Shown piece by piece: positions 34,584 to 55,447 of a stretch of 64,000 nucleotides of DNA (the first letter of the stretch is position 1; each line of letters begins with the position of its first letter). A program made the position numbers and the translations under genes. This stretch comes from a virus: positions 96,001 through 160,000 of IMG/VR virus record IMGVR_UViG_3300043570_004127; one strand, written 5' to 3'. Under the pieces are notes generated by a model. That model was given only the letters and a program-made list of their open reading frames with translations. It had not been told where the DNA came from and ran no database searches.

Positions 34584-35440
34584 TGGTCGTCGGCCCTGCT
34601 TAGATAGTCAACTTTTTCTTGCGGAGCATTCGAAATAGAACCATACTTTTCAATTAAATGGTTTTCATAATCCTTGATTATCGAAGGCAGCCACCATTGA
34701 CCGTTGTTCTGGAACATCGTTTCTTCTGGATGCGCTGGTGAGCATCCGCGCTCATCATCTTGCGAACCCTGAGCAAACCATGTCAGGTAGGAATACCTTA
34801 CCCCTCGTGTTACTTCGTTTATCTGATGAGCACCTATATAGTTTGCCGGCATCAGAACAATCGCGCCGGTTGACGGAGCAATATCTATATCGAAATACGG
34901 GATTGTCATGGTTCCACCAGAGAACGAATACTCAACTGATTCGTCATCGGTGCAGTCGTTGAAATATACAAGCGCTGAAAGAACGTTGCGTGTTGCATGT
35001 TGTTCTTTGGGCTCTCTACCGTAGCGATAGTTCACATCGTTGTCGGCGTGAAATCCAAGACCGCCGCTTTTTGCATACCTCAAAACATGACCAGGGCTCT
35101 TCCACCAGAGACACTGCAGGACAGCGGGAAACATTTCTATATAATGCAAAAGTGCGCCGTATATTGCTTTTTCACATTCTTGGAAAAATGGGATATCCAA
35201 GCTTCCTATCCTTATTGGAGCTTTATCCATGTCCTCTAGGTCGTAGATGAACCCACCCTTATTAATTGCGTGGAGTGGATTGCCGTCTTCATCCTTAATA
35301 ATCGTGTACGAGTTATTGAAAGCTTCATCCTTCTTTTTGTCAAGATACTCAAATGCCTCTTTTTGTGGAATATTGATTGCATTCTTAAAAATTACAGTTC
35401 CGCCGCCAAGGTGTTCTGGATTAAAGTTGAAATTGCTCAT
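34580..35440 (-). CDS. 2OG-Fe(II) dioxygenase (LGGG subfamily)
   Basis: HAD...YFND...GG...PANY.GAHQI...RYS. Confidence 0.85.
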   Translation of the reverse strand: MSNFNFNPEHLGGGTVIFKNAINIPQKEAFEYLDKKKDEAFNNSYTIIKDEDGNPLHAINKGGFIYDLEDMDKAPIRIGSLDIPFFQECEKAIYGALLHYIEMFPAVLQCLWWKSPGHVLRYAKSGGLGFHADNDVNYRYGREPKEQHATRNVLSALVYFNDCTDDESVEYSFSGGTMTIPYFDIDIAPSTGAIVLMPANYIGAHQINEVTRGVRYSYLTWFAQGSQDDERGCSPAHPEETMFQNNGQWWLPSIIKDYENHLIEKYGSISNAPQEKVDYLSRADDH

Positions 35441-36048
35441 AAAAGAGATTGTACAGCCTGGATGATGGTCATATCCATCTCGCTAGTTTCTACTGTTTCT
35501 GCTAGTGGTTTAACGCTAAATCTAAATCTGTACATCTGCCTGCCGTCTTTGCCAACTATAAATTTTTCGTAATAAGCATGTATTTTCTGCACCGCCCCAC
35601 CGGCAAGGTTTTGACCCTGGGCAGCAGACAGACTGGTTCCAGCTTTTGTATCATCAACAAGCCTTTTTGCATACCCTTTCATATGTGAGCATATTGGGTG
35701 TTCGTTATCTCCATTGATTTCCACTTTTTCCGTAATAGGAAAAGTCACAAATGGGTAAACTTCTTTAATAAAGTTAGATATTTCATGGTTATCCAAAGGC
35801 TCCATGTTCCAGAATTGGTTAGTTGGAACTCCTACAACGCTAAAATCATCAAACATTTCATGCAGTTTCTGGAGTTCCCACAGATTTTTGGAAGTTCTCC
35901 CGTATGACCAAATGCGACTACATTTTGGCTCGTACCCCGCTTTTGAACCAAAAGGGAAAAAGAGCGTTACTTTACCCTTAAGGCTAGAAAGTATGTTCTC
36001 ATCCCCATCTATCGATTTGATTGGTATGTCGTAAATTGATTGATTCAT
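35437..36048 (-). CDS. Glutathione-peroxidase-fold protein (divergent active site)
   Basis: SIYDIPIKSIDG..LKGKV, GVPTNQF..EP, FPITEKVEING.NEHP, EKFIVGKDG. Confidence 0.8.
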   Translation of the reverse strand: MNQSIYDIPIKSIDGDENILSSLKGKVTLFFPFGSKAGYEPKCSRIWSYGRTSKNLWELQKLHEMFDDFSVVGVPTNQFWNMEPLDNHEISNFIKEVYPFVTFPITEKVEINGDNEHPICSHMKGYAKRLVDDTKAGTSLSAAQGQNLAGGAVQKIHAYYEKFIVGKDGRQMYRFRFSVKPLAETVETSEMDMTIIQAVQSLL

Positions 36049-36950
36049 GACAAATGTCCGGCTATTGAATATTCCGCAAACTGACCAATCTTCGCCAAAC
36101 CCACAACATCACCATTTTCTTCATCGATAGAAAATCTTATACTTATTTCGGCTATTACTGGTGTATCCACAGAGAACGATGCATCGAACGAGGTATCCGT
36201 ATTAGTAAAACTCTCTATAAAGTACTTCCCGGTTGAATTAAATATTTCAGCAACATTTCCTTTTATCCCAAGGTTCACATCTTCTTTTCCAAATGGGGTG
36301 TTAATCCTAAGACAGTAAAACTTATCATACCCACCATTTTCATTTTCGGCGGAGCGAGAGTACGCAGTCCAGTCTTGGGTTGGTTTTACGTTAGGGTCTT
36401 TCGGTGCAAAATTTGCACTTACGACCAAACGTGCTTCCTCTCTGTTTCGATGCCTATTTGTCATGTGTGTTAAATAGGAATTAAAGATTATCAAATCTCC
36501 TGTTTCCGGTTTTATCTCTATGGAGTTTTCGATTGTGTTTCCAGCATTCACTAGAAATATCAAATCGGCGCTTCCGTCTGGGGCGCACGGATAGTAAGCG
36601 ATTGAGAAATACTCTTCGGGGTGTAGATGCGTGTTTGATTTGTGGGAGTGTGCCGAGACCGACTGCCCAAATTCAAGGCTCAGTGTCCATATGTCGCTCA
36701 TAACCATCTCTCGACCAACCGCGGTTGAAACTCGTTCCGTCAACTTGTCAATGAGCTTTTCTGACTCAATCATTCCAAATGGATATTTTCTATCTTCGTA
36801 ATATGTGTGATGCTTGTCGTCCATAAACGAATCGTCTATTTCTCCGTGAGCACCAGCAATCTCTTCCAGAAGTTTGGAATTATCAATACCGATTATCTTC
36901 GTTTTAAGGACATCAATCGACACCAGGTTTATTTTCTCAATATCACTCAT
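36045..36950 (-). CDS. Putative 2OG-Fe(II) oxygenase (TIGR02466-like) with a C-terminal beta domain
   Basis: HSH...FSIAYY...GDLIIFNSYL.H...RLVVSANF. Confidence 0.75.
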   Translation of the reverse strand: MSDIEKINLVSIDVLKTKIIGIDNSKLLEEIAGAHGEIDDSFMDDKHHTYYEDRKYPFGMIESEKLIDKLTERVSTAVGREMVMSDIWTLSLEFGQSVSAHSHKSNTHLHPEEYFSIAYYPCAPDGSADLIFLVNAGNTIENSIEIKPETGDLIIFNSYLTHMTNRHRNREEARLVVSANFAPKDPNVKPTQDWTAYSRSAENENGGYDKFYCLRINTPFGKEDVNLGIKGNVAEIFNSTGKYFIESFTNTDTSFDASFSVDTPVIAEISIRFSIDEENGDVVGLAKIGQFAEYSIAGHLS

Positions 36951-37617
36951 AGAAGAATTCGCCTAATTTTAGCGCAGTTGGTGGATTGTCTCGATGCCAC
37001 ACGTTTGTGACCATGACTTGCCTGATTCCGCTCTTTGCAGGTGTGGTCCCATGGACAACGTGGCCAGTATCAAAAATGATTACACGGTTACCCTTGTAGG
37101 CGATTCTTTCACGCTCTTCAACTGGAACTAATAACGTGTTGATGTTTTCAGACTCAATAGCCAGTTTTTCTCCATCTTTCAAAATGGCTTTATTGTATAT
37201 TTCAACAAAACCACCATCCTGATTGTCGAGACCATAGAATATCGAGCCAGTCAATGGGCCACTAAAAGTCTTTGACTCCTGGTAAAGAAAGGTGTCTTCA
37301 TCGACATGAACATCAAGATACTGGCCTGGGAGATAGGTTCTTGTCCAGTACTCAATACCGAGGATTTCGCTTGTATCGCATGGAAGGTTGTCTTCCCAAA
37401 TTGCCTGAACGACCCGCTTCCTTAATGTGTTTGCTGGAGTGGACCACCATCCATCCCAAAACATATATGGAGCAAAACAACTTGACTTTTCGTAATGGTA
37501 CGAATTCAGCTCTGTAGCTAATCTTTCGTCAGAGCCCATTGACTCTGGGAAAAATAGTTTGTCAGCTAATACATCTTCATACAAAGAATCATTGAGTGCA
37601 TTGTCTTTTATAATCAT
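36943..37617 (-). CDS. 2OG-Fe(II) dioxygenase
   Basis: GIEYW...HVDED...GNRVIIFD..HG....R. Confidence 0.75.
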   Translation of the reverse strand: MIIKDNALNDSLYEDVLADKLFFPESMGSDERLATELNSYHYEKSSCFAPYMFWDGWWSTPANTLRKRVVQAIWEDNLPCDTSEILGIEYWTRTYLPGQYLDVHVDEDTFLYQESKTFSGPLTGSIFYGLDNQDGGFVEIYNKAILKDGEKLAIESENINTLLVPVEERERIAYKGNRVIIFDTGHVVHGTTPAKSGIRQVMVTNVWHRDNPPTALKLGEFFYE

Positions 37618-38348
37618 GATTCTCCTTTGACGACAATAGTCATTCCGTAAAACAGAGGAACGTGATACACGCTGCAGCCGGATATCCTCTTAAGCGCTTC
37701 GTGGTATCCCCAGATTGGAGTTGCCTTTGTGTGATTGTTGTACAGAAACATACTGTCAGAGGTATTTTGGATTATCAGAATCCCGTTATCCTCGAGCCTG
37801 TCGACAAAGGCGCTAACAGGGATTAGTGGATTCTCCATATCCTGCGACCAAGAGAGCATCATGTCGTACTTATTGTTTACATGCTTTTCAAAATCCTGCA
37901 TTGTAACGACGTCATAGTCGTCAATTGGGTCTTGGAACTTTTCATACAGACTAAGTTTTTTGTTGTTGAGAAAGGTAATGTGGGCCCCATGTATCGACTT
38001 AAAAACCTTTAATCTGAACCTATCGAGACCACCTGAAATTGCCAATACATTTTTCTTCTTTGAGATATCCATAATCCCAAGAATTAGAAGAATCGACATC
38101 CATTGAGCCTGACCATACGCACTTGAAAGATTTGGTCTTGGATAATGGACAACGAACTCATAATCGCTCGCACCGCCGGTGGCAATATTCCTTCTATCAA
38201 TACCAACCGTATTGAAAAGATACTCGGCTATAGCGACAGAGTGACCACCATCTTCGCGGTTGCATTGGTCTGCATATTCTTCCCAATTAAACTGAAGAGA
38301 ACTAAAATCAAAAGAAACTTCAGGTTCATACCTTTTATCTTGTTCCAT
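37614..38348 (-). CDS. Methyltransferase-fold-like protein
   Basis: KNVLAI, KYDMML, DRLEDNGILII resemble class I SAM-MTase elements, but the motifs are degenerate. Confidence 0.45.
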   Translation of the reverse strand: MEQDKRYEPEVSFDFSSLQFNWEEYADQCNREDGGHSVAIAEYLFNTVGIDRRNIATGGASDYEFVVHYPRPNLSSAYGQAQWMSILLILGIMDISKKKNVLAISGGLDRFRLKVFKSIHGAHITFLNNKKLSLYEKFQDPIDDYDVVTMQDFEKHVNNKYDMMLSWSQDMENPLIPVSAFVDRLEDNGILIIQNTSDSMFLYNNHTKATPIWGYHEALKRISGCSVYHVPLFYGMTIVVKGES

Positions 38349-38616
38349 TTGTCACCTCGTATAGAGCAGCCTGCACATCAAACCAAGCACGGCGGACATT
38401 TCTTGTCAGTGTGATATTTTGTCTTTTTATATAGTCCTTAACACTGGAATCAATTTCGGTGTCATGGTCATATCGGTATCTGTCTCGAATTGCGTTTACG
38501 CAATCGTCTATTGTGATTTCGTCAAAACGCGATTCATCAAACCCGAGTATGAACAAGTATGCTGCAAGCTGTTCTGAACGATACGCCAAATCGGCAACTG
38601 GGTCATACCTGCTCAT
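38335..38616 (-). CDS. Hypothetical protein
   Basis: 93-aa ORF overlapping both neighbours in the operon. Confidence 0.6.
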   Translation of the reverse strand: MSRYDPVADLAYRSEQLAAYLFILGFDESRFDEITIDDCVNAIRDRYRYDHDTEIDSSVKDYIKRQNITLTRNVRRAWFDVQAALYEVTNGTR

Positions 38617-38794
38617 CTTTTTCCTTTTTCACATCAAACATTGCTACACCTTGACACATTGATACAGGCTTACCAGCAACATAATAGACACCGGTGCTTG
38701 AGTCCCATTCAATAATCTCGTTATCCCACTCTTCGGCGTCAGTTATTGCTTCACCTTTTCTGGTGCTCATCTTGAAGTCTTGTGGCTCATCCAT
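38603..38794 (-). CDS. Small acidic hypothetical protein
   Basis: 63-aa ORF coupled to its neighbours. Confidence 0.55.
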   Translation of the reverse strand: MDEPQDFKMSTRKGEAITDAEEWDNEIIEWDSSTGVYYVAGKPVSMCQGVAMFDVKKEKDEQV

Positions 38795-39002
38795 CTTTAA
38801 GTGCTTCCAATGCGGAGTACTCGTTTGACATAAGCCTAAAAGCGTTGTACTCTATTGTTCCTTCTTCGTGCGTATTTTCCCCAGAATACACGGGGGTCAT
38901 ACCCTCGCTCGCCATCAACTGACTCATCTCCCCTATTGACGCGGTCAGAAATCGTGCAGCCCTATTCTTTGCCATTAGAGGGTCATATTTTCCAAGTTTC
39001 AT
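38787..39002 (-). CDS. Small hypothetical protein
   Basis: 71-aa ORF; ATGA overlap with the upstream oxygenase. Confidence 0.55.
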   Translation of the reverse strand: MKLGKYDPLMAKNRAARFLTASIGEMSQLMASEGMTPVYSGENTHEEGTIEYNAFRLMSNEYSALEALKDG

Positions 39003-39616
39003 AAAAGTTCACGTATCCTCTCGTGCAGGCCAACAAGCTTATCAGTCGTATAAAAAGATGCAAGGGTGTACCTATCCCCACTGAGAACAGGCTTTACCTC
39101 GTGTCTAAACTCGGAGCCGCTTGGGAAGAAAACTAGCTGATTTGCTTTCGGCTTAATCATCAGGTCAAGTTCTTCAAAATACAACTCACCCCCATCGTAA
39201 TCAGCATTGAGGTAGAGGATTGATGAGTACTCATTTAGGACTTCAGACATCTGGTTGTTTGGGTCGTAGTTTCTGAGTGGCTCTGGATTGCCCCCGTAGT
39301 ATCCTTCTGCATCTGCGTGCATTTTAAGATACGAGCCAGGCAGGTACTTTCTTAAATACGGTTCATACAAGAAGCACAACCTCCTACCCACCGTGGCGGA
39401 TACGAGCGCCAATGCTCTAGATGAGACGTCTATGCGTTCCTGGCAGTCTGGTCTTTCGGTATATCTTTCACCGTCTAGATACTCCTGCCAGGTGTTATCC
39501 CAATGAATGAATTCCTTGCACTTATAAAGAATTTTTGACAATTCGTCACTCGTTGCAAAGTTGTCAACAACATGAACATTTCTTATCAATAAATCTTTAT
39601 AATCAAGCATCGACAT
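38999..39616 (-). CDS. 2OG-Fe(II) dioxygenase
   Basis: HAD...YLNADYDGGELYF...FPS...HEV...RYT. Confidence 0.88.
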   Translation of the reverse strand: MSMLDYKDLLIRNVHVVDNFATSDELSKILYKCKEFIHWDNTWQEYLDGERYTERPDCQERIDVSSRALALVSATVGRRLCFLYEPYLRKYLPGSYLKMHADAEGYYGGNPEPLRNYDPNNQMSEVLNEYSSILYLNADYDGGELYFEELDLMIKPKANQLVFFPSGSEFRHEVKPVLSGDRYTLASFYTTDKLVGLHERIRELL

Positions 39617-39618
39617 TA

Positions 39619-40323
39619 TTATTGTCCTGGAATTTTTAGTTTTGGCATTCCCTTGAAAGTGGGTCCAATTTTATTCCCGTCAGCGTCAAGGCCAGTCTTT
39701 ATTCCTTTTGTCCATGTCCAAGGATTCTCTTCGTTGTTTTTCATCTTCACATCGCCATACTTTGCGCGGCTCTTCATAAGCTCCATGTCATCTGAAAGGT
39801 TGCCGATGGTGAATTCAACATTCTCCAAAACGGTACTTTCAAATATTGAGAAAAACATGAATGGCATTCCAGCCTCAAACAAGACAGGTTCACCAATCTT
39901 GTTTATCTTCCAGTTCATTTGGAACTCATCGGGCCACCAACTACTTGGAATGATTGCAGAGAGTGCTTGTGCGTCATCTCTTATGTAGTTAGGCGAACCA
40001 CCAATAAATGTCTCGTACCCTGGTTCGGTTCCGAAAATCCAACCGACAGAGAAAGAAACCATTCCGATTATTCCACCGTAGGCAATCTGTCTGCCGCCGT
40101 ATGAACCGCCTTCAAGTATTGTTGGGACTGTATTACCGCCGTCCCACTGGGCAATAACGTCTTGCGGAAGAACAAGTTCCCAGCCATACACATTGGCTAC
40201 CGTCATTGGCAGGCATTGATATGCATGTTTTTTGTATGTTTCATCCATCCAGTCACGATTGATTCTGGATTGTCGAATCTCTGGTGGGTTATCGTGTGTT
40301 CGTTTTAGATTCACCTTAACCAT
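39619..40323 (-). CDS. DUF6065-family protein
   Basis: RDWMD...HAYQCLP..AN.YGWE, T.PGY, G.PN, F.MNWK, F..G.PF. Confidence 0.75.
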   Translation of the reverse strand: MVKVNLKRTHDNPPEIRQSRINRDWMDETYKKHAYQCLPMTVANVYGWELVLPQDVIAQWDGGNTVPTILEGGSYGGRQIAYGGIIGMVSFSVGWIFGTEPGYETFIGGSPNYIRDDAQALSAIIPSSWWPDEFQMNWKINKIGEPVLFEAGMPFMFFSIFESTVLENVEFTIGNLSDDMELMKSRAKYGDVKMKNNEENPWTWTKGIKTGLDADGNKIGPTFKGMPKLKIPGQ

Positions 40324-40858
40324 AAAGAATTGCCATCTCCTCTGCTAGGACGCGGTTTAATAATTTTGCTGATTTTGGTAGCGTTCTTATTCTCCAAAAA
40401 CCACCAAACAAATCTTTCACTGCATCCGCATGCGGACCAGACAGGTACATTGTTTTTTCGCCAATGTCGTCACTTGATGGTTCGGTAATTGGCCAACCGC
40501 GTAGGGCTCCCTCCACATACTTGACCCCTTTGGGAACGAGTATGTTTTCAAGGTCGGCGTCATTTGAATCAGCCCACATTGCGTTCAGGTCGATATATAT
40601 GCCTTTGAAATTCCGTGAAACTATTTCCTGGCCAAGCTCAAACGGGTCGAAGTTCTTTGCAATACAAAAAAAGAACTCACTCTTTTCTACGAGCGCATCA
40701 AACGTGAGAACGTCCTGTATCCCAAACTTTTCCGCACGGGCCTTAGTTTCGTCAGAGCGGCCCTCGGACGCCCATATGCATTCATGACCGTACAAAGAGC
40801 AAGAGTACGCGACGGTTGAACCCATTGCCCCAGGAGAGTAGATTCCTACGACCGCCAC
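40316..40858 (-). CDS. NAD(P)-binding oxidoreductase (6PGD/beta-HAD N-terminal domain only)
   Basis: VGIYSPGAMG, WASEGRS..T..RA, YIDLNA, YLSGP. Confidence 0.75.
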   Translation of the reverse strand: MAVVGIYSPGAMGSTVAYSCSLYGHECIWASEGRSDETKARAEKFGIQDVLTFDALVEKSEFFFCIAKNFDPFELGQEIVSRNFKGIYIDLNAMWADSNDADLENILVPKGVKYVEGALRGWPITEPSSDDIGEKTMYLSGPHADAVKDLFGGFWRIRTLPKSAKLLNRVLAEEMAILYG

Positions 40859-41523
40859 TACTGACTAAGTGGAGCCTTTACTCCATCGTAGCTGCCCTTG
40901 ATGTCGTGGTTTCTGTCGTTGTAGTCAAACATTGTTACCGCTGAGTACTTGGTTCCACTTATCACGGGTTTTGCTGCGTGGGCATAGATAAAGGTTGACG
41001 GGAACATAACAATGTCTCCAGCTTCGGGCTTAAATGTCAAGTCCAAGTATGGAAACCATAGTTCTCCACCTTCGTAGTCATCGTTGAAATATCCGACAGA
41101 AGAAACTGTACATGTGTAAGAAAACCCATGGTCTGTGTGCACCTGGAAGTGTTGGCTTTCTTTGTACCGAATAAAGTTAATGGCTTCCATGTATTCCATG
41201 TTTATGTTGTAGCGACTCTGGTAATCAGTCATGCACGCACGTATGGCACCAGCCGTGTCTGCATATATATTTTTTAGCTCTGCAAATTGTGGATACTGTT
41301 GAAGGTATTCAATATGTGTTTCCCCAATTTTGCAGTCAACACAGTCTCGGTACTCTGGCATTTTTTGCGAGTATCCAACAAGGGCTTCGTTCCACTTGAA
41401 TAGACCTACCGTACTATTTCCTATAGTCGCCTCTAGACGATTAATTATGTCCAATTCTTTTGGTAGTGCATTTTTGTAGAGAAGAATCCCTAGGCGCGGG
41501 TCGCTGAGTATTTCGGTTTCCAT
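40858..41523 (-). CDS. 2OG-Fe(II) dioxygenase (prolyl-4-hydroxylase-like)
   Basis: HTD...YFNDDYEGGEL.FP...FPS.F.YAH.A.PV..GTKYS. Confidence 0.9.
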   Translation of the reverse strand: METEILSDPRLGILLYKNALPKELDIINRLEATIGNSTVGLFKWNEALVGYSQKMPEYRDCVDCKIGETHIEYLQQYPQFAELKNIYADTAGAIRACMTDYQSRYNINMEYMEAINFIRYKESQHFQVHTDHGFSYTCTVSSVGYFNDDYEGGELWFPYLDLTFKPEAGDIVMFPSTFIYAHAAKPVISGTKYSAVTMFDYNDRNHDIKGSYDGVKAPLSQ

Positions 41524-41577
41524 AGTCCCAGTCTATACATATCGGAGATGTCCATACGCCACCTGGAGATACGTGAT

Positions 41578-42462
41578 TTAGAGCGGAAGGAATGCTTCTG
41601 CAAAATGTATCTGCCTATGAATCCCGGGGTGGACCGAATCGACAGCCTCATCCCAGAACTCCACATTATCTCCGTCGTGCTCACACCCGTCAATCATTAA
41701 CGATTCATTTGGGTTGATGAAATTTTCAATCCCAAGTACGGAATAGACGCGATTATCTACAGGGTCCCACGAGTAAAACTTAAAATTTATTTCTTCTATG
41801 GAGCAGAAATCCTGGAGATTCTTTAAAGAGTTCAATGAGTTTTGGATAACAATATCTAAAGATATCTCTTTACCTCTTGAGCGCCCTGGGAAGAAATTTT
41901 CATGAGACAGAAACTCACGGTCTCTTTTCGACCAGGCGAACCTCTCCCTGTACGGGGGTGTGTCTACGCTTATCCATTGTCTACCTGCTTCTGGGGCGAG
42001 GAAAAGTAAATGTTTTGGTTTGCCATAAATCTTAATGAATTCAAAGACAGCTGTAGTAATCTGCTGAATCGAGCCGCCAGGTATTCCTAGTTGGTTAAAA
42101 GAAAGTTGTGTTCTTTCGCCGACGACATACGGCCAGGAGAGACCAGTGCTTAGTCCTATTCCGGCAGTGAAAGAGCATCCTGCGGCAAGTATTTCAGCAT
42201 TTCTTATGAATTCTTTACCTATAATCCCATTTTTGTTTACGTGGTATTTTACGTTCTCATGCGGTTTATGTGAAGCAGAATCATTCGTGTCCAAGCCAGA
42301 TTCTTTGTAACTAAAAAAACTTGGATTAAATTGTGCTTCACCGCAAAAATCTATAACGTCTTTCGAAAACATGTTTTCGTAAACGTTTTGCAAACGCTTT
42401 TCGTATATTTTTCGATAATGGTTTTCGCGCATCCTGTCAAAGCCCAATGTTTTTACCCGCAA
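41578..42462 (-). CDS. SGNH/GDSL-like hydrolase/acyltransferase
   Basis: GCSFTAG...SWP...NQLGIPGGS...D.VHPG...H. Start uncertain. Confidence 0.7.
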   Translation of the reverse strand: MRVKTLGFDRMRENHYRKIYEKRLQNVYENMFSKDVIDFCGEAQFNPSFFSYKESGLDTNDSASHKPHENVKYHVNKNGIIGKEFIRNAEILAAGCSFTAGIGLSTGLSWPYVVGERTQLSFNQLGIPGGSIQQITTAVFEFIKIYGKPKHLLFLAPEAGRQWISVDTPPYRERFAWSKRDREFLSHENFFPGRSRGKEISLDIVIQNSLNSLKNLQDFCSIEEINFKFYSWDPVDNRVYSVLGIENFINPNESLMIDGCEHDGDNVEFWDEAVDSVHPGIHRQIHFAEAFLPL

Positions 42463-42493
42463 CCTTCACAAACGCTTCATCCATTACTGCAGT

Positions 42494-43156
42494 CTATACG
42501 GTAGTAAAGAATCCTTGTGACATATAGCGGGTACCGGAGATAATCGGCCTCACGCCATGGGCCATATCTTCGTGCCAAGTGTGCGACCAAATCAGTAAAG
42601 AATTAGCTTTTGGTTTTATCGATAGTCCAAGGATTGGCATGTATAACTCACCGCCCTCGTAGTCGTCATTGACGTAGTAGACGCATGAAAAGTCAGTGAC
42701 TGCGCCAGCCTTATCCAAAAACACGCCGTCGCAGTGAAGGCCCATATTGTCGCCTTCTTTGGCCATCGACAACCAGGGACCGCTTTCAAAATAGGTCTTA
42801 TTCCCGTAAGTGTCTTTTATTGTGTCTCTGACATTTATCAACATCCACGACAGAATTTTGTTAACCTTCTCATCTGCTGGTATATGCATGGAAATTTTGT
42901 AATTATCCCCGTTTGTCATGTAGCCACCAGAACTAATTTCATCCCTGGTTGGCAAGAAAGAGGTTTGGAAGGTTATCTCTGGGTTAAGAGAATGGGTCTT
43001 TTTCTTCCAACCAATCTCTGGGTTATGACCAACAAACTCAAATTTATCTTCATTATTCTCGCAATATGCTTTTACTACTCCCCATTCATCTTGTGGTAGG
43101 TAGTCAACGAACAAACCTATTCTTGGCGTATTGGTAAGAAGAGGTTCGTGTCCCAT
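42494..43156 (-). CDS. 2OG-Fe(II) dioxygenase
   Basis: HCD...YVNDDYEGGELY...HGV...RYM. Confidence 0.88.
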   Translation of the reverse strand: MGHEPLLTNTPRIGLFVDYLPQDEWGVVKAYCENNEDKFEFVGHNPEIGWKKKTHSLNPEITFQTSFLPTRDEISSGGYMTNGDNYKISMHIPADEKVNKILSWMLINVRDTIKDTYGNKTYFESGPWLSMAKEGDNMGLHCDGVFLDKAGAVTDFSCVYYVNDDYEGGELYMPILGLSIKPKANSLLIWSHTWHEDMAHGVRPIISGTRYMSQGFFTTV

Positions 43157-43157
43157 A

Positions 43158-43775
43158 TCATTCGACCGTAAAGAATGCTGGGGATGTGTATCGCTCGCCG
43201 CTCGTGACCATTTTCACACCATGTAGATAGTTGATGTCCCCAGGGTGGATTACGGCAAGACCAGGCTCTGGCTTTACGACGATGTCGTGTTCTGGATAGT
43301 AAAGTTCTCCGCCTTCGAAGTCGTCGTTCCAATAGAAAAGCGAATTGATGTCGTATGTTGGGAACGGATTTGGTGAGCCATCATTCATCTGCTTATCCGC
43401 ATGTGGGCGTTGTTCAATCCCACCAAACCACCGAACTATGCATGGTGGCCGTTTCTCTAGTTTGCAATTAAAAATCTCACCTGCAGTCACAGCCATCTTG
43501 TCGAGATAGAAATCAATAAGGTCGTACACCTCTTTGTTGATTCTCTCCAAAATAGTCGAAGTACATTGCCTATTGTTCCAATACGCAGCATTATAAGTGC
43601 ATACGCCGTTTTCGTCAAAGATGTCCGTGTCCGAACCATTTGACCATTCTTTTATGGTCCTAGCAAATGACGAGATGATAGATGCATCTTTTTCATCAAT
43701 GAAGTTCTTTATGACGTGGATATTTTCTGGGCCAGTGCCGAAAAATCCAGGTTCTATCTTCCATGGTGAATTCAC
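43158..43775 (-). CDS. 2OG-Fe(II) dioxygenase
   Basis: HADK...YWNDDFEGGELYY...HGV...RYT. Confidence 0.88.
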   Translation of the reverse strand: MNSPWKIEPGFFGTGPENIHVIKNFIDEKDASIISSFARTIKEWSNGSDTDIFDENGVCTYNAAYWNNRQCTSTILERINKEVYDLIDFYLDKMAVTAGEIFNCKLEKRPPCIVRWFGGIEQRPHADKQMNDGSPNPFPTYDINSLFYWNDDFEGGELYYPEHDIVVKPEPGLAVIHPGDINYLHGVKMVTSGERYTSPAFFTVE

Positions 43776-43802: not shown

Positions 43803-44693
43803 TTAATTGAGCCCCAGATATTCATCGATATCAAGACTGATTAGGTCAAGGGACACGTCTACACCCTTTTCCTTTACCTGTGGGTCAATCCATGGTTCGC
43901 CATCATCTTTTGGACCTACGAATGGCTTCCAGTCTTTTTCACCATTGTCTAGAAACTTCTCATCAAGCCACGGATATATTTCGCCAAAGACGTCTCTTTC
44001 GCCGAGCAAGAAACCATTTGAGTATCTCTTGGTTTTGGTTCCAGTTCTGTCAATCAAGAACTTTGTGAAGTTCCCCGTAATTGGAAAGGCGCGTTTTGCG
44101 TCTTTTGGAACATCTTCAGAAATACCCGACCAAGGCACTGATTCTCCAGTATATGGAACACCAAGTTTATTTAGTGTCGCGTTATAGCCCTCTGTTAGGT
44201 AGTACCAAAGAGTATTCTGTGTCTGGGATATTTCCGTATTTGGAACAAAATCGGACTCATATGTAACTTTGTCAACTCTGCCATTAGTGAGTTCTGAGAA
44301 CTCAAATGTGGTTCCAAAGTTCTCTTCCGCGTACTTTTTGGCAAATTCACCAACCGACATATCAATATTGTTCACTGTGCAGTACGAGGCAATCCCATCC
44401 TGGAATTCTTTGTACCCATGGCACTGAAAGTCATCGACAACAATCGCAATAATGTCAAAGTCTGGTTCATTCTTGTAACGCTGATTTAGCTTCTCTATAA
44501 TGCCGTGCTGTGGAATATTGCCACAACCTGCAGCAACGTTGAATAAAAGGGTTACCTTGCCTTTTCTGTTGGCCAGAATATCTTGCACTTTTCCATCGCT
44601 AGAGGCAATTGGTATGTCATAAAGCGAAATCGGATGAACGACCTCTGAGGCCACTGCGTGTTCACTGTTTAGGTAGTTTTCAATCGACGTCAT
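43803..44693 (-). CDS. Glutathione-peroxidase-fold protein with insertions
   Basis: KGKVTLLFNVAAGCGNIPQH...GNFTKFLIDRTG. Confidence 0.8.
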   Translation of the reverse strand: MTSIENYLNSEHAVASEVVHPISLYDIPIASSDGKVQDILANRKGKVTLLFNVAAGCGNIPQHGIIEKLNQRYKNEPDFDIIAIVVDDFQCHGYKEFQDGIASYCTVNNIDMSVGEFAKKYAEENFGTTFEFSELTNGRVDKVTYESDFVPNTEISQTQNTLWYYLTEGYNATLNKLGVPYTGESVPWSGISEDVPKDAKRAFPITGNFTKFLIDRTGTKTKRYSNGFLLGERDVFGEIYPWLDEKFLDNGEKDWKPFVGPKDDGEPWIDPQVKEKGVDVSLDLISLDIDEYLGLN

Positions 44694-45268
44694 TTTGCCA
44701 ACTCGTTTTCAATCATTTCTGATAGTTTTTGGAGCTCTACTTCAGGAGACTCACATCTTCCATCATTGTAAGCATACTCAAGCAGCACACCATTGGTGAT
44801 TCTGGCTACTCTTTCGCCCTTTTTGTTAACCAAGAACTTTTCAAAGTTTCCAGTCATGTCTTGCTTGAGTCTTTTTTCGTCTTCCGTCATGAGGGTTTGA
44901 TACAGCTCATGTGGAGTGTTTTGTTTTTCTTCTTGCTTTTCGTGCCATGAAACAATTAGTTCAGAGAAATCAAACGAAGCGTTCCATTCGTTGACACCGT
45001 AATCCCTTGCGTGCTTTGCATCTCTTACGCCGTCTGCGTACTCTCCGTAGGTAACTCCACCGCCGCAGAAATCATTTGTGGGAACAGCAACAACGTTGAA
45101 TCCAAGGTCTTTGTATTTCTGATAAAGACCCTCAATAATTCCAAACTGGGGTGCGTTTCCACAGTGTCCAGTCGTATTAATGATTAGCGTTACCTTGCCT
45201 TCAGAGTCCTTGAGAATATCTCGTTCGCCATCCCATGACTTGAGGTCGATGTCGTAAATTGATTTCAT
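44690..45268 (-). CDS. Glutathione-peroxidase-fold protein
   Basis: GKVTLIINTTGHCGNAPQF..E.LYQKYKD.GF.V.AVPTNDF...GNFEKFLV. Confidence 0.85.
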   Translation of the reverse strand: MKSIYDIDLKSWDGERDILKDSEGKVTLIINTTGHCGNAPQFGIIEGLYQKYKDLGFNVVAVPTNDFCGGGVTYGEYADGVRDAKHARDYGVNEWNASFDFSELIVSWHEKQEEKQNTPHELYQTLMTEDEKRLKQDMTGNFEKFLVNKKGERVARITNGVLLEYAYNDGRCESPEVELQKLSEMIENELAK

Positions 45269-45271: not shown

Positions 45272-46075
45272 CTACTTAAACCTCGGAGGGAAGTATGGAG
45301 GAAAGAACGGAGGAAAAAATGGCGGGAAAAATGGTGGGAAAAATGGCGGGAAATAAGGTGGGAAAAATGGCGGGAAGAAGGGTGGGAAGTATGGCGGGAA
45401 AAACGGTGGAAAAAATGGCGGGAAGTAAGGTGGAAAAAACGGTGGGAAAAACGGCGGAAAGTAGGGCGGAAAGAATGGCGGAAAGAATGGCGGGAAGTAA
45501 GGTGGAGCTACTGGGGTAACCGAGTTTGATGCTGCAGAAGTCGCAGTGCCGAAGGCGGTCGACGCAGTCACAGTAAACGTATAGGAGGTGCCGTTAGTAA
45601 GGCCGGAGACGGTGATAGGAGACGTTCCAGTGCCCGTAAGCCCTCCAGGCGATGAAGTGGCCGTATAAGTCGGAGAACCCGTCCCTGTGGCTCCTGCGGT
45701 GTATGCAACGGTTGCCGAGGCATTACCGCCAGTCGCAGTACCAATTGTTGGTGCGGATGGACCAACACCCATGACAAGCGAAGAACTCACTTCGGATGAA
45801 TCTGACTCAACTCCGGTTGACGAAATTGCTACAACAGTGAACGTTCTTGTTGTTCCTGCTGTCATTCCACTTACTACGATTGGGCTGGAATTTCCAGTGG
45901 CTGTTTGACCAGAGTCTGAGGTCGCCCTATAGGTTACGGTTCCCTTGCCTATATAGCTAGATGCGGTAAAAACAACGCTTGCCGATGTTCCTGTAGCGAG
46001 CAGCGGCGTACCAATCGTTGGCGCTGTAGGTTTCTTGCCTCCAGAATCGACTTGTTTGTTGCTTGAAACGGCCAT
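45272..46075 (-). CDS. FN3-domain protein with a C-terminal (PP[F/Y]F)x19 repeat tail
   Basis: Two FN3-like domains (SPI.VSGLTNGTSYTFTV), then 19 PPxF units. Confidence 0.85.
   Translation of the reverse strand: MAVSSNKQVDSGGKKPTAPTIGTPLLATGTSASVVFTASSYIGKGTVTYRATSDSGQTATGNSSPIVVSGMTAGTTRTFTVVAISSTGVESDSSEVSSSLVMGVGPSAPTIGTATGGNASATVAYTAGATGTGSPTYTATSSPGGLTGTGTSPITVSGLTNGTSYTFTVTASTAFGTATSAASNSVTPVAPPYFPPFFPPFFPPYFPPFFPPFFPPYFPPFFPPFFPPYFPPFFPPFFPPYFPPFFPPFFPPFFPPFFPPYFPPRFK
45278..45505 (-). repeat. 19 x 12-bp coding repeat (PPFF x12, PPYF x6, PPRF x1) with varied codons
   Basis: Counted directly from the sequence. Confidence 0.95.
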
Positions 46076-46078: not shown

Positions 46079-46858
46079 TTATGTAGCTGAAAGGTCTCCC
46101 GTTGCCACCCATGTATCTGATGCTCTTTTTAGAAGCGTAACACCTGACCACTGAGCGCGCAGATAAACACCTGGAGTTGCGTTCACGGTGACACCAGCGC
46201 CTGCAAGGATTCTCGTCTTGCCAGTTCCTGTTTGAAGAACCTGTATTTGGCTACCGATTGGGAAAGCCACCGACGAGTTTGGAGGTACTGTCAAGTCATT
46301 CGCAGAACCAACACCCATTTCAACAATCTTATTTTTGTCGGCAAGTACAAGTGTGTAGCTTGCGGCTTGCGCGTTTGTCAAGATATCTGCAATTTTTCCC
46401 TGAGCAATATTTGCAGAAGAGCTTATGTCCCCGTCAACAATTGTTGAGTCAGCAATCATTGCCGACGTAATTGTCCCAGAGTCCGTAAGCGTTACTGCTG
46501 TTCCAGCAATCTTTGTTTTGTCAATGGCAGCAGAGGCGTTTACATCGGCGTTGACTATGACACCAGAGCTAATTGCCGCAACACCCGAAGAGTTGATTAC
46601 CACATCACCTGTTGAGTCAACCGCAGTTGCTACTCCAGAGCCATTAAAAACTATTATCTGGCCTGCCGTAGCGTTGAATATTTTTTGCAACCCAACTGTT
46701 CCATCAACAAGAGTAGAGCCACTTATTGAATCAGTTGTGTACATGGCTGTTGGGATAGTTACTAAAATCCAACCAGAACCGTTATACGTCCAAGTCTTAC
46801 CGGCACTTGAGTGCTGGTCGCCGGATTGAGCACCCGATGGGAAGTCAATCGCTGCCAT
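46079..46858 (-). CDS. Short fibre/adaptor protein with a C-terminal docking module
   Basis: N-terminus IDFPS..GD...GKTWTYNG.W; C-terminus YTLVLADKNKIV...VPPNSSVAFPIG...WVATGDL. Confidence 0.7.
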   Translation of the reverse strand: MAAIDFPSGAQSGDQHSSAGKTWTYNGSGWILVTIPTAMYTTDSISGSTLVDGTVGLQKIFNATAGQIIVFNGSGVATAVDSTGDVVINSSGVAAISSGVIVNADVNASAAIDKTKIAGTAVTLTDSGTITSAMIADSTIVDGDISSSANIAQGKIADILTNAQAASYTLVLADKNKIVEMGVGSANDLTVPPNSSVAFPIGSQIQVLQTGTGKTRILAGAGVTVNATPGVYLRAQWSGVTLLKRASDTWVATGDLSAT

Positions 46859-54314: not shown

Positions 54315-54902
54315 TTACCACCAATTAGCAATGGAGTACTTGGTGCCGCTTATTACTGGTTTTGCTTCATGCCTGAATGGTGCTCCAGATGGGAAAATTA
54401 CAACATCCCCGGCTACCGGCTCATAAGTAAAATTTAAATCCTGAAAATATAACTCTCCGCCTTCATAGTCGTCATTGAGGTAAGCAACTGCCGAGGCATA
54501 ACGTCTGGTTCTTTCACCATTGTCTAGATGGGATACATAGTGCTCGCCAATTGAGTATTTCAAGATTTGGTAACCAAGTGTTGAGTTGGATTTAATGCTA
54601 AGACCAAATTTGTTATTAAAGTGCTGCAGGCATGGCAGAACGCATTCGTGGATTTTGTTTGCCAGCATGACCTCTGCGGATGACTCATCGCCTTTCTGGG
54701 TCGGCGCTGGGGTGAACATTAGTTGGTTTGTCCTTACATCAGATATAAATACTTTGCCTTCGGTGTCGATAACCGTTGATTGACTCCAGTCGCCCTTGCT
54801 GTCTGTGGAAATATTTAATAATTCTGAAGCTTCTATTATCTCAAAAGGGTAAGCGATTGCGTTCCTGTAAATACATACACCATTGACATTGATGTGCTTC
54901 AT
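54315..54902 (-). CDS. 2OG-Fe(II) dioxygenase (prolyl-4-hydroxylase-like)
   Basis: YQILKY..G.HY..HLD...YLNDDYEGGELYF...FPS..PF.HEA.PV..GTKYS. Confidence 0.9.
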   Translation of the reverse strand: MKHINVNGVCIYRNAIAYPFEIIEASELLNISTDSKGDWSQSTVIDTEGKVFISDVRTNQLMFTPAPTQKGDESSAEVMLANKIHECVLPCLQHFNNKFGLSIKSNSTLGYQILKYSIGEHYVSHLDNGERTRRYASAVAYLNDDYEGGELYFQDLNFTYEPVAGDVVIFPSGAPFRHEAKPVISGTKYSIANWW

Positions 54903-54970
54903 TTTAGAACTCCGCTATCTCTACTGGTGCTACAAGTTATTTGAAAAACAATGTAGCTTGCAGACCAACC

Positions 54971-55435
54971 TTAAACCTCGTTGTTGCTTTGTGTTCTGCT
55001 TTCAATTGCCGTCTTTGCAAACTTATTAACAAAATTTGCTGCTGATTCAGTTGTTTTCAACTCTGACCAACTATCGCTAAATGAAAATTGACGCTGATAT
55101 TCTTGTTCATAATCTGCGACTATCAAGCCAACGAGCCTGGTCATCACTCCTTCTCGCTGATGGTCTGGATGGGTCATGGCCACCCATGGCTTTCTGATTC
55201 CATCCATCATGTAGTCGATGTACACACCAACTAGCAGTCCGTCATCATTTCTAAGCATGTTAAAAGTAAATGGCATCGCATAACCAGGGTTTATTGATGG
55301 CCAAATAAATTCCCTTACCATCTTGCTGAATCCTGGTTCCCCATATTCTCCAACAAGGTTTTCCATGGTAAGCCAGTCTGCAAAGTGGTCAAACTCCGCT
55401 TTAGGTGATATGTCTTGCCAATTATCATCACTCAT
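54971..55435 (-). CDS. GNAT-like acetyltransferase fold protein
   Basis: THPDHQREGVMTRL resembles GNAT motif A (V.P..R..G). Confidence 0.55.
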   Translation of the reverse strand: MSDDNWQDISPKAEFDHFADWLTMENLVGEYGEPGFSKMVREFIWPSINPGYAMPFTFNMLRNDDGLLVGVYIDYMMDGIRKPWVAMTHPDHQREGVMTRLVGLIVADYEQEYQRQFSFSDSWSELKTTESAANFVNKFAKTAIESRTQSNNEV

Positions 55436-55447
55436 GATTAAACCTTA

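What the first reader, a model, noticed from the sequence alone, without database searches (positions are those of the whole stretch)
45272..46075. Extensin-like (PPFF/PPYF)19 tail with a higher-order Tyr period
The tail reads (PPYF-PPFF-PPFF)x4, PPYF, (PPFF)x4, PPYF, PPRFK. Codons vary between units, so the repeat is maintained at protein level rather than by recent slippage. It sits directly upstream of two peroxidase-fold genes and a run of prolyl-hydroxylase-like genes. This recalls plant extensins and mussel adhesive proteins (Hyp, glycosylation, Tyr cross-links). The analogy is inference.
Basis: partly seen in the sequence, partly recalled or inferred. Interest (0 to 1): 0.8.

Follow-up and report, generated by a model that had tools for sequence, protein, structure and literature searches.

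The report
Phage fibre protein with Pro-Phe rod
An uncultured lake phage ends a small tail-fibre-associated protein in 19 Pro-Pro-Phe/Tyr-Phe units; this undescribed rod-like module recurs in over a hundred related phages, almost always just before collagen-type proline-hydroxylase-like genes, so it is a testable candidate substrate, but no chemistry has been shown.

Summary
ORF 45272-46075 (-) encodes 267 aa: a short conserved N-terminal peptide, two FN3 domains, and a tail of 6 PPYF, 12 PPFF and 1 PPRF plus Lys. Contigs from independent lake metagenomes span the tail unchanged.

The window is about half of an uncultured freshwater myovirus. Its host is not established.

- **A conserved module.** I found 148 distinct proteins with 4-35 units. 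Position 3 is Phe 59%, Tyr 24%, His 11%. The run follows FN3, PASTA or other Ig-like domains, or sits as an internal linker in long fibre proteins.
- **The run's end is a mature C-terminus.** Some homologues continue directly into a self-cleaving Peptidase_S74 trimerisation chaperone or a Hint-like domain. S74 cleavage would leave the ...FK end seen here.
- **It swaps with other proline spacers.** In a paralogous cassette the same slot holds Pro27, (PPPS)n, (PFF)5 or (TPAP)5.
- **Synteny is near-constant.** The order is fibre gene, tail gene, then 2OG oxygenases, in 105 of 118 contexts. The first oxygenase folds like P3H1, PBCV-1 vCPH and PHD2.

Hydroxylation is plausible (about 40%) but unproven, because all loci belong to one phage lineage. 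Tyr cross-linking by the GPx-fold genes is not supported. This scan had already found the family in at least 13 other genomes.

The parts
45272..46075 (-). ORF of 267 aa: N-terminal peptide, FN3, FN3, then a (PPxF)19-K tail
   Evidence: ORF list. Pfam fn3 E 2.3e-6. AF2 gives two beta-sandwich domains with pLDDT above 95. Foldseek top hits are tandem FN3 pairs.
46028..46075 (-). Conserved N-terminal peptide (aa 1-16, motif D-S-G-G-K-x-P)
   Evidence: D10, G12, G13, K14 and P16 are nearly invariant in alignment A1. The paralogue 55448-56494 carries a similar motif. Its role as a docking peptide is inference.
45767..46027 (-). FN3 domain 1 (about aa 17-103)
   Evidence: AF2 strands E25-E85 with pLDDT above 90. 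Fold matches to FN3 tandems.
45506..45766 (-). FN3 domain 2 (about aa 104-190), ending in the conserved ...SNSVTPVA junction
   Evidence: Pfam fn3 match at aa 145-178. AF2. The junction is nearly invariant in A1.
45275..45505 (-). Aromatic-proline tail: 6 PPYF, 12 PPFF and 1 PPRF, then a C-terminal Lys
   Evidence: Unit-by-unit read-out. AF2 pLDDT is 47-71 with no DSSP structure. The same module occurs in 148 distinct proteins.
46079..46858 (-). Upstream fibre-type protein (259 aa), ending 3 nt before the FN3 gene starts
   Evidence: PHROG minor tail / tail fibre families, E 4e-23. tblastn matches minor tail proteins of Gordonia and other phages.
46082..46372 (-). C-terminal domain of about 97 aa, shared by the fibre genes that precede FN3/Pro-rich-tail genes
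   Evidence: 58% identical to the C-terminus of 56491-60123, E 1e-29. It sits at the extreme C-terminus of 208 of 208 ORFs in related loci, and 138 of 155 are followed by an aromatic-proline gene (the sample is biased).
44690..45268 (-). GPx-fold thiol-peroxidase-like gene 1, starting 3 nt after the tail gene's stop
   Evidence: Pfam GSHPx E 5.5e-11. Best PDB hits are yeast Hyr1/Gpx3 E 7.6e-12 and other GPx proteins.
43803..44693 (-). GPx-fold-like gene 2 (296 aa, with a C-terminal extension)
   Evidence: Pfam GSHPx E 1.6e-5, 24.9 bits, just under the gathering score of 27. phrog_5295.
43158..43775 (-). Prolyl-hydroxylase-like 2OG-Fe(II) oxygenase; its orthologue is present in nearly every related locus
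   Evidence: Pfam 2OG-FeII_Oxy_3 E 1.4e-5, 26.4 bits, just under the gathering score of 27. PDB sequence hits are P3H1, B. anthracis P4H and LH3. AF2 pLDDT is 93. Foldseek top hits are P3H1, PBCV-1 vCPH, PHD2 and Chlamydomonas P4H. H125, D127, H185 and R195 are invariant in 23 orthologues.
34580..43156 (-). Rest of the enzyme island. 2OG oxygenases at 42494-43156, 40858-41523, 38999-39616, 36943-37617, 36045-36950 and 34580-35440. DUF6065 at 39619-40323. A third GPx-fold gene at 35437-36048. Unknowns at 41578-42462, 40316-40858 and 37614-38348.
   Evidence: Pfam scans. The same genes in the same order occur in related loci.
54315..60123 (-). Paralogous cassette. A fibre with the same C-terminal domain (56491-60123), an FN3x2 protein with a Pro27 linker and a Cys-rich tip (55448-56494), an unknown 154-aa protein (54971-55435), and a P4H-like oxygenase (54315-54902).
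   Evidence: Orthologues swap the linker for (PPPS)n, (PFF)5, (PVDPGF)3, (TPAP)5 or (PPSF/PPDF)8.

Best explanation
The gene encodes a small accessory protein of the tail-fibre module of an uncultured freshwater myovirus.

Shown:
- It has two FN3 domains followed by a 77-residue tail of PPxF units.
- The tail is a conserved, mobile protein module restricted to one phage lineage.
- The end of the run is the functional C-terminus.
- The gene always lies behind a fibre gene that ends in one particular 97-aa domain, and nearly always in front of a battery of prolyl-hydroxylase-like oxygenases.

Inferred:
- The (PPxF)n run works as an extended, stiff polyproline-II-type rod or spacer. If fully extended at 3.1 A per residue it would be about 24 nm long. 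Orthologous slots hold poly-Pro, (PPPS)n or (TPAP)n instead, and the same run serves as an inter-domain linker in long fibre proteins.
- The N-terminal peptide probably docks the protein onto the C-terminal domain of the preceding fibre protein, so the FN3 domains and rod decorate the fibre tip.
- The rod is probably oligomeric, likely trimeric, because homologues carry the trimer-nucleating, self-cleaving S74 chaperone directly after it.
- It may be hydroxylated on Pro by the adjacent enzymes, at about 40% likelihood. This would be comparable to collagen, extensins and the Pro-rich repeats of chlorovirus PBCV-1.
For: **Anatomy.**

**Module character.**
- 148 distinct proteins carry 4-35 units.
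- N-terminal partners are FN3, PASTA, He_PIG and Flg_new domains.
- The run is an internal linker followed by FN3 or Hint domains in proteins of 900-1200 aa.

**Restricted to one lineage.**
- Only 12 pattern hits in 185,579 prokaryote genomes. Six are the same phage type mis-binned in MAGs, three are short repeat ORFs with no phage context, and three show no such ORF.
- No match in 50,697 cultured phages.

**Mature C-terminus.** Pfam Peptidase_S74 (E 4e-12 to 1e-11, above gathering) starts at the Ser right after ...PPAFK in L227 and L214, and after ...PPNFY in L080. The window protein and 57 of 148 relatives end ...FK. Hint-like domains follow in other homologues.

**Interchangeable with proline spacers.**

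**Synteny.**
-. All 56 informative loci anchored on DUF6065 have such a tail once a frame break is read through.
- 105 of 118 contexts have a 2OG gene within 2.5 kb.
- The fibre C-terminal domain is shared.

**Enzyme class.**

**Hint of co-variation.** In the paralogous cassette, the four linker types that contain Pro-Pro have an oxygenase gene behind them. The three types without Pro-Pro do not.
Against: - No structure is available. AF2 gives the tail pLDDT 47-71 and no regular structure. PPII, trimer and orientation are all inferences.
- Half the rod's residues are aromatic. That is unlike known soluble PPII spacers and needs burial or modification.
- A 4-residue repeat does not match the 3-residue PPII turn, and there is no Gly for collagen-like packing.
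- The S74 domain could serve other parts of those homologues, and the window protein has no S74 domain.
- All loci belong to one phage lineage, so conserved adjacency may be inherited gene order rather than a functional link.
- The co-variation count (7 linker types) is small and not corrected for phylogeny.
- The published readings of such phage oxygenase arrays differ: control of 2OG levels and DNA repair (PMC3037559), or peptide secondary metabolites (PMC2938197).
- About ten oxygenases are far more than one tail seems to need.
Confidence: 0.6

Rival explanations
1. The tail is an unmodified spacer, and the oxygenase island is unrelated to it. The 2OG enzymes would serve host metabolism, DNA repair or a small-molecule or peptide product, and they lie next to the fibre module only through inherited gene order.
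For: - Published readings of cyanophage 2OG oxygenases are 2OG/nitrogen physiology and DNA repair (PMC3037559), and peptide secondary metabolism for the Syn9 ten-dioxygenase array (PMC2938197).
- Cultured cyanomyoviruses have 2OG oxygenases but no detectable homologue of this protein.
- All tail-bearing loci are one lineage.
- Thirteen of 118 tail genes lie several kb from the cluster.
Against: - Adjacency survives divergence down to about 40% protein identity, and survives swaps of the N-terminal domain type.
- The island and the tail are co-restricted to the same lineage.
- The nearest enzyme has the fold of protein prolyl hydroxylases, not of nucleic-acid or small-molecule oxygenases.
- A second Pro-rich cassette has its own P4H-like gene.
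Confidence: 0.35
2. One reading: the tail is hydroxylated, glycosylated and cross-linked through Tyr by the two peroxidase-fold proteins, like extensins or mussel adhesive proteins.
For: - GPx-fold genes directly follow the tail gene here and in the closest relatives.
- Tails with a GPx-fold gene within 2.5 kb are richer in Tyr (0.36 against 0.21) and lack His (not corrected for phylogeny).
Against: - Tyr is dispensable across the family (Phe 59%, Tyr 24%, His 11%), and several tails are all-Phe.
- A GPx-fold gene is close in only 23 of 118 contexts.
- GPx-fold enzymes are Cys/Sec thiol peroxidases. Dityrosine and isodityrosine are made by haem peroxidases, and DOPA by tyrosinases (established knowledge). 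Neither enzyme type was seen in the genes I scanned around the tail.
- The best PDB match, yeast Hyr1/Gpx3, is a thiol oxidase. That fits disulfide formation in the Cys-rich tips of sister proteins better than Tyr chemistry.
- There are no Ser-Pro4 or YxY motifs.
Confidence: 0.05
3. The (PPxF)n run is itself a new kind of self-assembling trimeric fibre shaft. Three extended strands would pack around an aromatic core, nucleated from the C-terminus, rather than acting as a passive spacer.
For: - The S74 intramolecular chaperone, known to drive trimerisation and then cut itself off (PMC8326128 abstract), lies directly after the run in three homologue types.
- The ...FK end is conserved.
- With half its residues aromatic, the run needs burial.
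- A 12-residue super-period (Tyr or His every third unit) recurs in several sub-families.
Against: - No multimer model could be made with these tools.
- The 12-residue period is not family-wide.
- Single-chain linkers of the same sequence occur between domains of long proteins, though those proteins may themselves be trimers.
- Other proline linkers with no aromatic residues replace it in orthologues.
Confidence: 0.2
4. It is not a real coding feature: a simple DNA repeat, an assembly artefact, or the antisense ORF 45295-45519 (+) is the true gene.
For: The DNA is a 12-nt tandem array, and an antisense ORF of 74 aa exists.
Against: - The frame is continuous with two well-folded FN3 domains.
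- Synonymous sites are randomised while the peptide is kept.
- 148 relatives keep the same frame.
- Independent metagenome contigs agree exactly.
Confidence: 0.01

Closest known systems
Chlorovirus PBCV-1 prolyl 4-hydroxylase (vCPH, PDB 5c5t) and that virus's own proline-rich repeat ORFs
   Same: A virus encodes both a collagen-type prolyl hydroxylase and proteins with short proline-rich tandem repeats. vCPH is the second-best fold match of the oxygenase next to the tail gene.
   Different: - The host is a eukaryotic alga, not a bacterium.
- It has one enzyme, not about ten.
- From my own knowledge of the literature (not checked here), the PBCV-1 repeats are of the Pro-Ala-Pro-Lys type, not aromatic.
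- No fibre-gene synteny is known for it.
- vCPH activity on peptides has been measured; nothing has been measured here.
Tandem dioxygenase array of Synechococcus phage Syn9 (ten dioxygenases plus a dUTPase-fold protein; Iyer, Abhiman, de Souza and Aravind 2010, PMC2938197)
   Same: A myovirus carries a long tandem array of diverse 2OG-type dioxygenases of unknown substrate, together with a small conserved non-oxygenase partner. Here the partner is DUF6065.
   Different: - The authors proposed peptide secondary-metabolite synthesis and named no virion protein as substrate.
- I saw no tryptophan halogenases here.
- Cultured cyanophages lack the PPxF protein.
- Their oxygenases are only 25-34% identical over most of the length, with one 48% match over a 58-aa piece.
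- I did not test whether DUF6065 is the same as the dUTPase-fold protein.
Plant extensins and algal hydroxyproline-rich glycoproteins
   Same: Both are extracellular structural proteins with short proline-rich repeats in polyproline-II form that are hydroxylated by P4H-type enzymes. An orthologue of the paralogous cassette has a (PPPS)n linker.
   Different: The window protein has no Ser-Pro(3-5) motif, no YxY or VYK cross-link motifs and no secretory pathway. Half its residues are aromatic. No glycosylation evidence links to it.
Collagen-like (Gly-X-Y) segments and Gly-rich PPII bundles in phage fibres (such as the S16 gp38 adhesin and the cyanophage tail-spike fibre 7YFW noted in PMC13243192)
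   Same: Both put extended left-handed helical repeats in phage fibre or adhesin proteins, encoded next to fibre genes.
   Different: Those depend on Gly at every third position or on poly-Gly strands. This tail has no Gly, a 4-residue unit, and bulky aromatic side chains.
Fibres and tailspikes that end in the Peptidase_S74 intramolecular chaperone (endosialidase type)
   Same: Homologues L227, L214 and L080 carry this domain directly behind the run. The predicted cleavage leaves the same ...FK end as in the window protein.
   Different: The window protein has no S74 domain. Known S74 clients are triple beta-helices or coiled coils, not proline-aromatic repeats.

Membership tests
Fibronectin type III domain proteins on phage virions | FN3 beta-sandwich fold | tested here: met
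   Pfam fn3 E 2.3e-6, 28.1 bits against a cut-off of 25. AF2 gives two domains with pLDDT above 95. Foldseek top hits are tandem FN3 pairs, E about 1e-8.
Fibronectin type III domain proteins on phage virions | Encoded within the structural (tail or fibre) module | tested here: met
   It is flanked upstream by fibre-type genes. The same order holds in more than 100 loci.
Fibronectin type III domain proteins on phage virions | Physically present in the virion | not testable with these tools
   There is no cultured relative and no proteome data.
Extensins (plant HRGPs) | Ser-(Pro/Hyp)3-5 repeats | tested here: not met
   The tail is PPxF only, with no Ser.
Extensins (plant HRGPs) | Tyr cross-link motifs (YxY, VYK) and class III haem peroxidase partners | tested here: not met
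   Tyr occurs singly, in PPYF. The neighbours are GPx-fold thiol peroxidases.
Extensins (plant HRGPs) | Hydroxyproline and O-arabinosylation | not testable with these tools
   This needs mass spectrometry.
Collagen-like proteins | Gly at every third residue (Gly-X-Y)n | tested here: not met
   The tail contains no Gly.
Mussel foot (DOPA) adhesive proteins | Tyr/DOPA- and Lys-rich repeats with a tyrosinase partner | tested here: not met
   The tail has 6 Tyr and 1 Lys in 77 residues. No tyrosinase was seen in the Pfam scans of the neighbours.
Peptidase_S74-terminated fibres | C-terminal S74 intramolecular chaperone domain | tested here: not met
   The domain is absent from the window protein. 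It is present in homologues L227, L214 and L080.
Prolyl 4-hydroxylase-type 2OG oxygenases (for neighbour 43158-43775) | DSBH fold nearest to protein prolyl/lysyl hydroxylases, with an intact HxD...H plus a basic 2OG-binding residue | tested here: met
   Foldseek top hits are P3H1, vCPH, PHD2, P4H and LH3. H125, D127, H185 and R195 are invariant. Pfam PF13640 scores 26.4 bits, just under the cut-off of 27.
Prolyl 4-hydroxylase-type 2OG oxygenases (for neighbour 43158-43775) | Hydroxylates peptidyl proline | not testable with these tools
   This needs an enzyme assay.
Glutathione peroxidase family (neighbours 44690-45268 and 43803-44693) | GPx fold with a peroxidatic Cys | tested here: inconclusive
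   Pfam GSHPx scores 42.4 bits (met) and 24.9 bits (under the cut-off of 27). PDB hits are Hyr1 and GPx proteins. A Cys stands at the expected place in 44690-45268 (...GHCGN...). I did not check the full catalytic tetrad.

The most novel reading that the evidence does not exclude
The (PPxF)n run would be a new self-assembling, probably trimeric, aromatic-proline helix that forms the tip of phage fibres. It would also be the long-sought natural substrate of the large tandem arrays of P4H-like dioxygenases in aquatic myoviruses. That would be a bacterial-virus counterpart of collagen or extensin biosynthesis, carried out in the host cytoplasm.
Probability: 0.15. Interest if true: 0.85.

Novelty: new variant of a known kind. 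Interest (0 to 1): 0.6.

Why it matters
Aquatic myoviruses carry striking tandem arrays of up to ten or more 2OG-Fe(II) dioxygenases. Their substrates have been unknown since they were first described. Proposals range from 2OG/nitrogen physiology and DNA repair (PMC3037559) to peptide natural products (PMC2938197).

A conserved, lineage-specific proline-rich module sits at the junction between the fibre genes and such an array. Its nearest enzyme folds like collagen prolyl hydroxylases. This gives a concrete and cheap hypothesis to test: co-express, then look for +16 Da.

If the hypothesis holds, it would show post-translational hydroxylation of virion proteins in bacteriophages. It would also add a new fibrous repeat (Pro-Pro-aromatic-Phe) to protein structural biology and materials design.

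If it fails, the module is still an undescribed, swappable rod element of phage host-recognition proteins. I found no paper that pairs PPFF repeats with phages. This scan has met the family repeatedly, in at least 13 other genomes.

Tried and rejected
I obtained genomic context through the search for related loci instead.
- **Cultured phages.** tblastn of the protein and of DUF6065 against 50,697 cultured phages found nothing. BLAST's low-complexity filter masks the tail, so only the FN3 part was really tested.
- **Late-promoter and terminator scans.** TATAAATA gave 3 hits against 1.4 expected. The sigma-70 and terminator scans were at or below shuffle expectation. They gave no transcript boundaries. 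Co-transcription is suggested only by the 3-nt gaps between genes.
- **RNA evidence.** No RNA holder was listed, so nothing can be said about expression.
- **Tail conformation.** AF2 of the monomer gave low confidence for the tail. No multimer prediction is offered.
- **The 3-unit Tyr period as a PPII-face constraint.** Twelve residues would be four PPII turns. This is attractive, but the period is not family-wide and I could not test it. It is also not explained by recent block duplication, because synonymous identity at lags 3 and 6 is not raised.
- **psbA in the contig.** None was found, but the record is only 54% complete, so this does not settle the host. Other follow-ups of this scan suggest actinobacterial hosts for relatives. 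I leave the host open.
- **NCBIfam.** The scans added nothing beyond weak PiuC-type and GPx hits, all far under their cut-offs.
- **DUF6065.** No PDB sequence relative was found.
- **Population variation in unit number.** The laid contigs showed no clean 12-nt indels. The depth spike over the tail is cross-mapping from related phages.
Full report
**What is there.** The ORF 45272-46075 on the minus strand is open and encodes 267 residues. From residue 191 it reads PPYF-PPFF-PPFF four times, then PPYF, four PPFF, PPYF, PPRF, Lys, stop.

Codon choice differs from unit to unit: CCA 16, CCG 14, CCT 6, CCC 2; TTC 15, TTT 16. Third-position identity between units at lags 1 to 9 is 0.29-0.52. This is indistinguishable from a null in which synonymous codons are shuffled among units of the same peptide. 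Tandem Repeats Finder sees only 76-82% matches. The repeat is therefore old and held at the protein level.

Contigs of two other lake-water metagenome runs span the whole tail without a single difference, so it is not an assembly artefact. The 74-aa antisense ORF at 45295-45519 is a by-product of the repeat.

**The rest of the protein and the genome.** Pfam finds FN3. An AlphaFold2 model built on 23 homologues gives two beta-sandwich domains at pLDDT above 95. The tail scores 47-71 with no regular secondary structure. The best structural matches are tandem FN3 pairs.

The window belongs to a 79.5-kb IMG/VR virus record rated 54% complete. It carries portal, terminase and tail-sheath genes. Its 918-aa structural protein is about 44% identical to virion proteins of Synechococcus myoviruses. 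The small fibre protein upstream, however, resembles minor tail proteins of Gordonia and other phages. No psbA lies in the fragment. I therefore call it an uncultured freshwater myovirus with an unestablished host. Twenty-four lake-water runs hold the stretch.

**The tail is a module.**
- A protein search returned many metagenomic FN3 proteins ending in (PP[F/Y/H]F)n.
- Scans of IMG/VR gave 80 and then 79 loci. In six-frame translation I counted 148 distinct proteins with at least four consecutive units: 4-35 units, median 12. Position 3 is Phe 59%, Tyr 24%, His 11%.
- A tail-only search found 82 near-length and 27 longer protein clusters. Their N-terminal parts are FN3, PASTA, He_PIG, Flg_new or unassigned.
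- In proteins of 900-1200 residues the same run is an internal linker followed by an FN3-like or Hint-like domain.
- A degenerate DNA pattern for three units hit only 12 places in 185,579 prokaryote genomes. Six are the same phage type mis-binned in MAGs, three are short repeat ORFs with no phage context, and three show no such ORF.
- The cultured-phage collection has no homologue.
- No paper in the library pairs PPFF repeats with phages.

**Where the run ends matters.** In three homologue types (L227, L214, L080) the run continues directly into the Pfam Peptidase_S74 intramolecular chaperone. E is 4e-12 to 1e-11, above gathering. Profile position 1 falls on the Ser that follows ...PPAFK or ...PPNFY. 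This domain is known from phage tailspikes to drive trimerisation and then cut itself off (PMC8326128). Cleavage would leave ...FK, which is how the window protein and 57 of the 148 relatives end.

Other homologues carry a Cys-initiated Hint/intein-like domain (Pfam Intein_splicing E 1e-5, below gathering) or a small Cys-rich knob. The end of the run is thus a mature C-terminus or a junction to a small terminal element. The S74 link suggests, but does not prove, that the run is part of a trimer.

**It behaves like a proline spacer.** The window holds a paralogous cassette. It has a 1210-aa fibre (56491-60123), an FN3x2 protein with 27 consecutive Pro and a Cys-rich tip (55448-56494), an unknown 154-aa protein, and a P4H-like oxygenase (54315-54902). 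The two FN3 proteins are 36% identical.

Both preceding fibre genes end in the same 97-aa domain, 58% identical, E 1e-29. In the fetched loci this domain sits at the extreme C-terminus of 208 of 208 ORFs. In 138 of 155 cases it is followed within 2.4 kb by an aromatic-proline gene (the sample was largely collected through such genes, so it is biased). An earlier first-reader note of this scan had pointed to this domain. I confirm the observation; its role as a docking site is inference.

Orthologues of the Pro27 protein carry (PPPS)n, P8-VD-P7, (PPSF/PPDF)8, (PFF)5, (PVDPGF)3 or (TPAP)5 in the same slot before the same Cys-rich tip. This interchange is my main reason to read (PPxF)n as an extended, polyproline-II-type rod. 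At 3.1 A per residue, 77 residues would span about 24 nm.

**The link to the oxygenases.** Downstream on the same strand, with gaps of a few bases, lie:
- two GPx-fold genes;
- seven 2OG-Fe(II) oxygenases;
- DUF6065;
- a third GPx-fold gene;
- three unknowns.

The first oxygenase (43158-43775) has weak sequence matches to P3H1, Bacillus anthracis P4H and LH3. A confident model (pLDDT 93) has as nearest structures P3H1, the PBCV-1 viral collagen prolyl hydroxylase, PHD2, Chlamydomonas P4H and LH3. Its HxD...H...R residues are invariant in 23 orthologues. So "prolyl-hydroxylase-like" is justified at the level of fold.

The order fibre gene, tail gene, oxygenases plus DUF6065 holds in essentially all loci found through the tail. 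To test the reverse direction, I collected 80 loci through DUF6065 alone. Of these, 56 reach back to a fibre gene, and 39 show a tail ORF outright. The other 17 also encode a tail, in a gene interrupted by a +1 frame break.

Over all data, 105 of 118 distinct tail contexts have a 2OG gene within 2.5 kb downstream. The 13 exceptions are second tail genes lying deeper in the fibre module.

In the paralogous cassette, the four linker types that contain Pro-Pro are followed by an oxygenase gene. The three types without Pro-Pro are not.

All this fits a substrate-enzyme relation. But every locus belongs to one phage lineage, in which the tail, DUF6065 and this oxygenase set are all co-restricted. 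The counts are not phylogenetically independent. I put hydroxylation of the tail at about 40%.

**What is not supported.** The Tyr-centred part of the analogy fails.
- Tyr is replaceable by Phe or His across the family, and some tails are pure PPFF.
- The 3-unit period of Tyr (or His) recurs in several sub-families but is not general. Lags 3 and 5 are only mildly enriched.
- GPx-fold genes are close in only 23 of 118 contexts. Those tails are richer in Tyr (0.36 against 0.21), but that is probably a clade effect.
- GPx-fold proteins are thiol peroxidases. Dityrosine chemistry belongs to haem peroxidases (established knowledge).
- The best PDB relative, yeast Hyr1/Gpx3, is a peroxide-driven thiol oxidase. 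That would suit disulfide formation in the Cys-rich tips of sister proteins at least as well.
- Extensin, collagen and mussel-protein motifs are absent.

**Comparison with what is known.** Functionally, the nearest precedent is PBCV-1, a virus that encodes a collagen-type P4H and proline-rich repeat proteins. Genomically, the nearest is the ten-dioxygenase array of cyanophage Syn9. Its authors proposed peptide natural-product synthesis and noted a dUTPase-fold partner (PMC2938197). Sullivan and co-workers proposed 2OG/nitrogen physiology or DNA repair (PMC3037559).

Known extended-helix elements in phage fibres are Gly-based (PMC13243192). The aromatic-proline unit, its modular use, and its fixed place before an oxygenase battery are not described in the papers I could search.

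Within this scan the family has been reported before, in at least 13 other genomes, with the same reading. I reached the synteny and module conclusions before reading those notes. From them I took the Syn9 paper and the caution about the host.

The best reading is a fibre-associated FN3 protein that ends in a stiff, probably oligomeric Pro-Pro-aromatic-Phe rod, and that is a credible but unproven substrate of the adjacent hydroxylases. It is a new variant of a known kind of element (proline-rich rods and linkers of fibre proteins), of moderate to high interest because it makes the old question of phage oxygenase arrays directly testable.

Noticed in passing
L213:2960-3480, L219:1090-1580, L228:5490-6010, L241:6820-7270, L245:760-1280 and about 12 more (not in the window): In related phages the PASTA-type tail gene is split. 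The N-terminal part (M...KKQNRKAPKPT[V/I]AARN, then stop) is in frame 0, and the rest (GTADS...(PPxF)n...FK) is in frame +1. Seventeen distinct DNA variants keep GCN-GCN-CGG-A at the break. In-frame homologues (L214, L222, L223) read GCA-GCT-GGT there. This is a candidate programmed +1 frameshift at a rare CGG codon.
   Followed up: partly
window 55448-56494; L255:516-1562, L252:5001-6041, L259:5001-6047, L257:251-1102, L258:1584-2414, L031:463-1434: Orthologues of the Pro27 protein swap the linker before a conserved Cys-rich tip: P27, (PPPS)n, P8-VD-P7, (PPSF/PPDF)8, (PFF)5, (PVDPGF)3 or (TPAP)5. Only the versions that contain Pro-Pro have an oxygenase gene right behind the cassette (4 of 4 against 0 of 3; small, related sample).
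   Followed up: partly
L050:9968-10891, L040:9965-10891, L088:101-1429, L157:9992-11299, P0139: Many homologues carry a Cys-initiated Hint/intein-like domain directly after the aromatic-proline run (Pfam Intein_splicing E about 1e-5, below gathering). This suggests self-cleavage, or transfer of the rod's C-terminus to another molecule.
   Followed up: partly
L213:3467-4183, L219:1573-2292, L241:7264-7938 and relatives: A very hydrophobic ORF of 224-239 aa, which looks like a membrane protein, follows the PASTA-type tail gene and precedes the oxygenases in one sub-lineage. It has no counterpart between the tail gene and the GPx-fold genes in the window.
   Followed up: no
window 27064-28098 (+), inside ORF 26635-28521: Six poly-Thr tracts of 8-15 residues lie in a 628-aa FN3-bearing tail protein. 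An earlier follow-up of this scan links such tracts to the GT60 glycosyltransferase at 30070-31568.
   Followed up: no
window 45293-45523: Contig depth rises several-fold over the tail in all four laid runs, with many short, diverged pieces and loose ends. These are fragments of related phages' tails cross-mapping, which shows that many such genes coexist in the same lake samples.
   Followed up: partly
window 44690-45268 and 43803-44693; related loci: Tails with a GPx-fold gene within 2.5 kb have more Tyr (0.36 against 0.21 of units) and no His (0 against 0.13). Mann-Whitney p = 8e-5, without phylogenetic correction, so this is probably a clade effect.
   Followed up: partly
window 45295-45519 (+): The 74-aa antisense ORF (a MAGK-type repeat) is the mirror image of the tail repeat and is not a gene.
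   Followed up: yes
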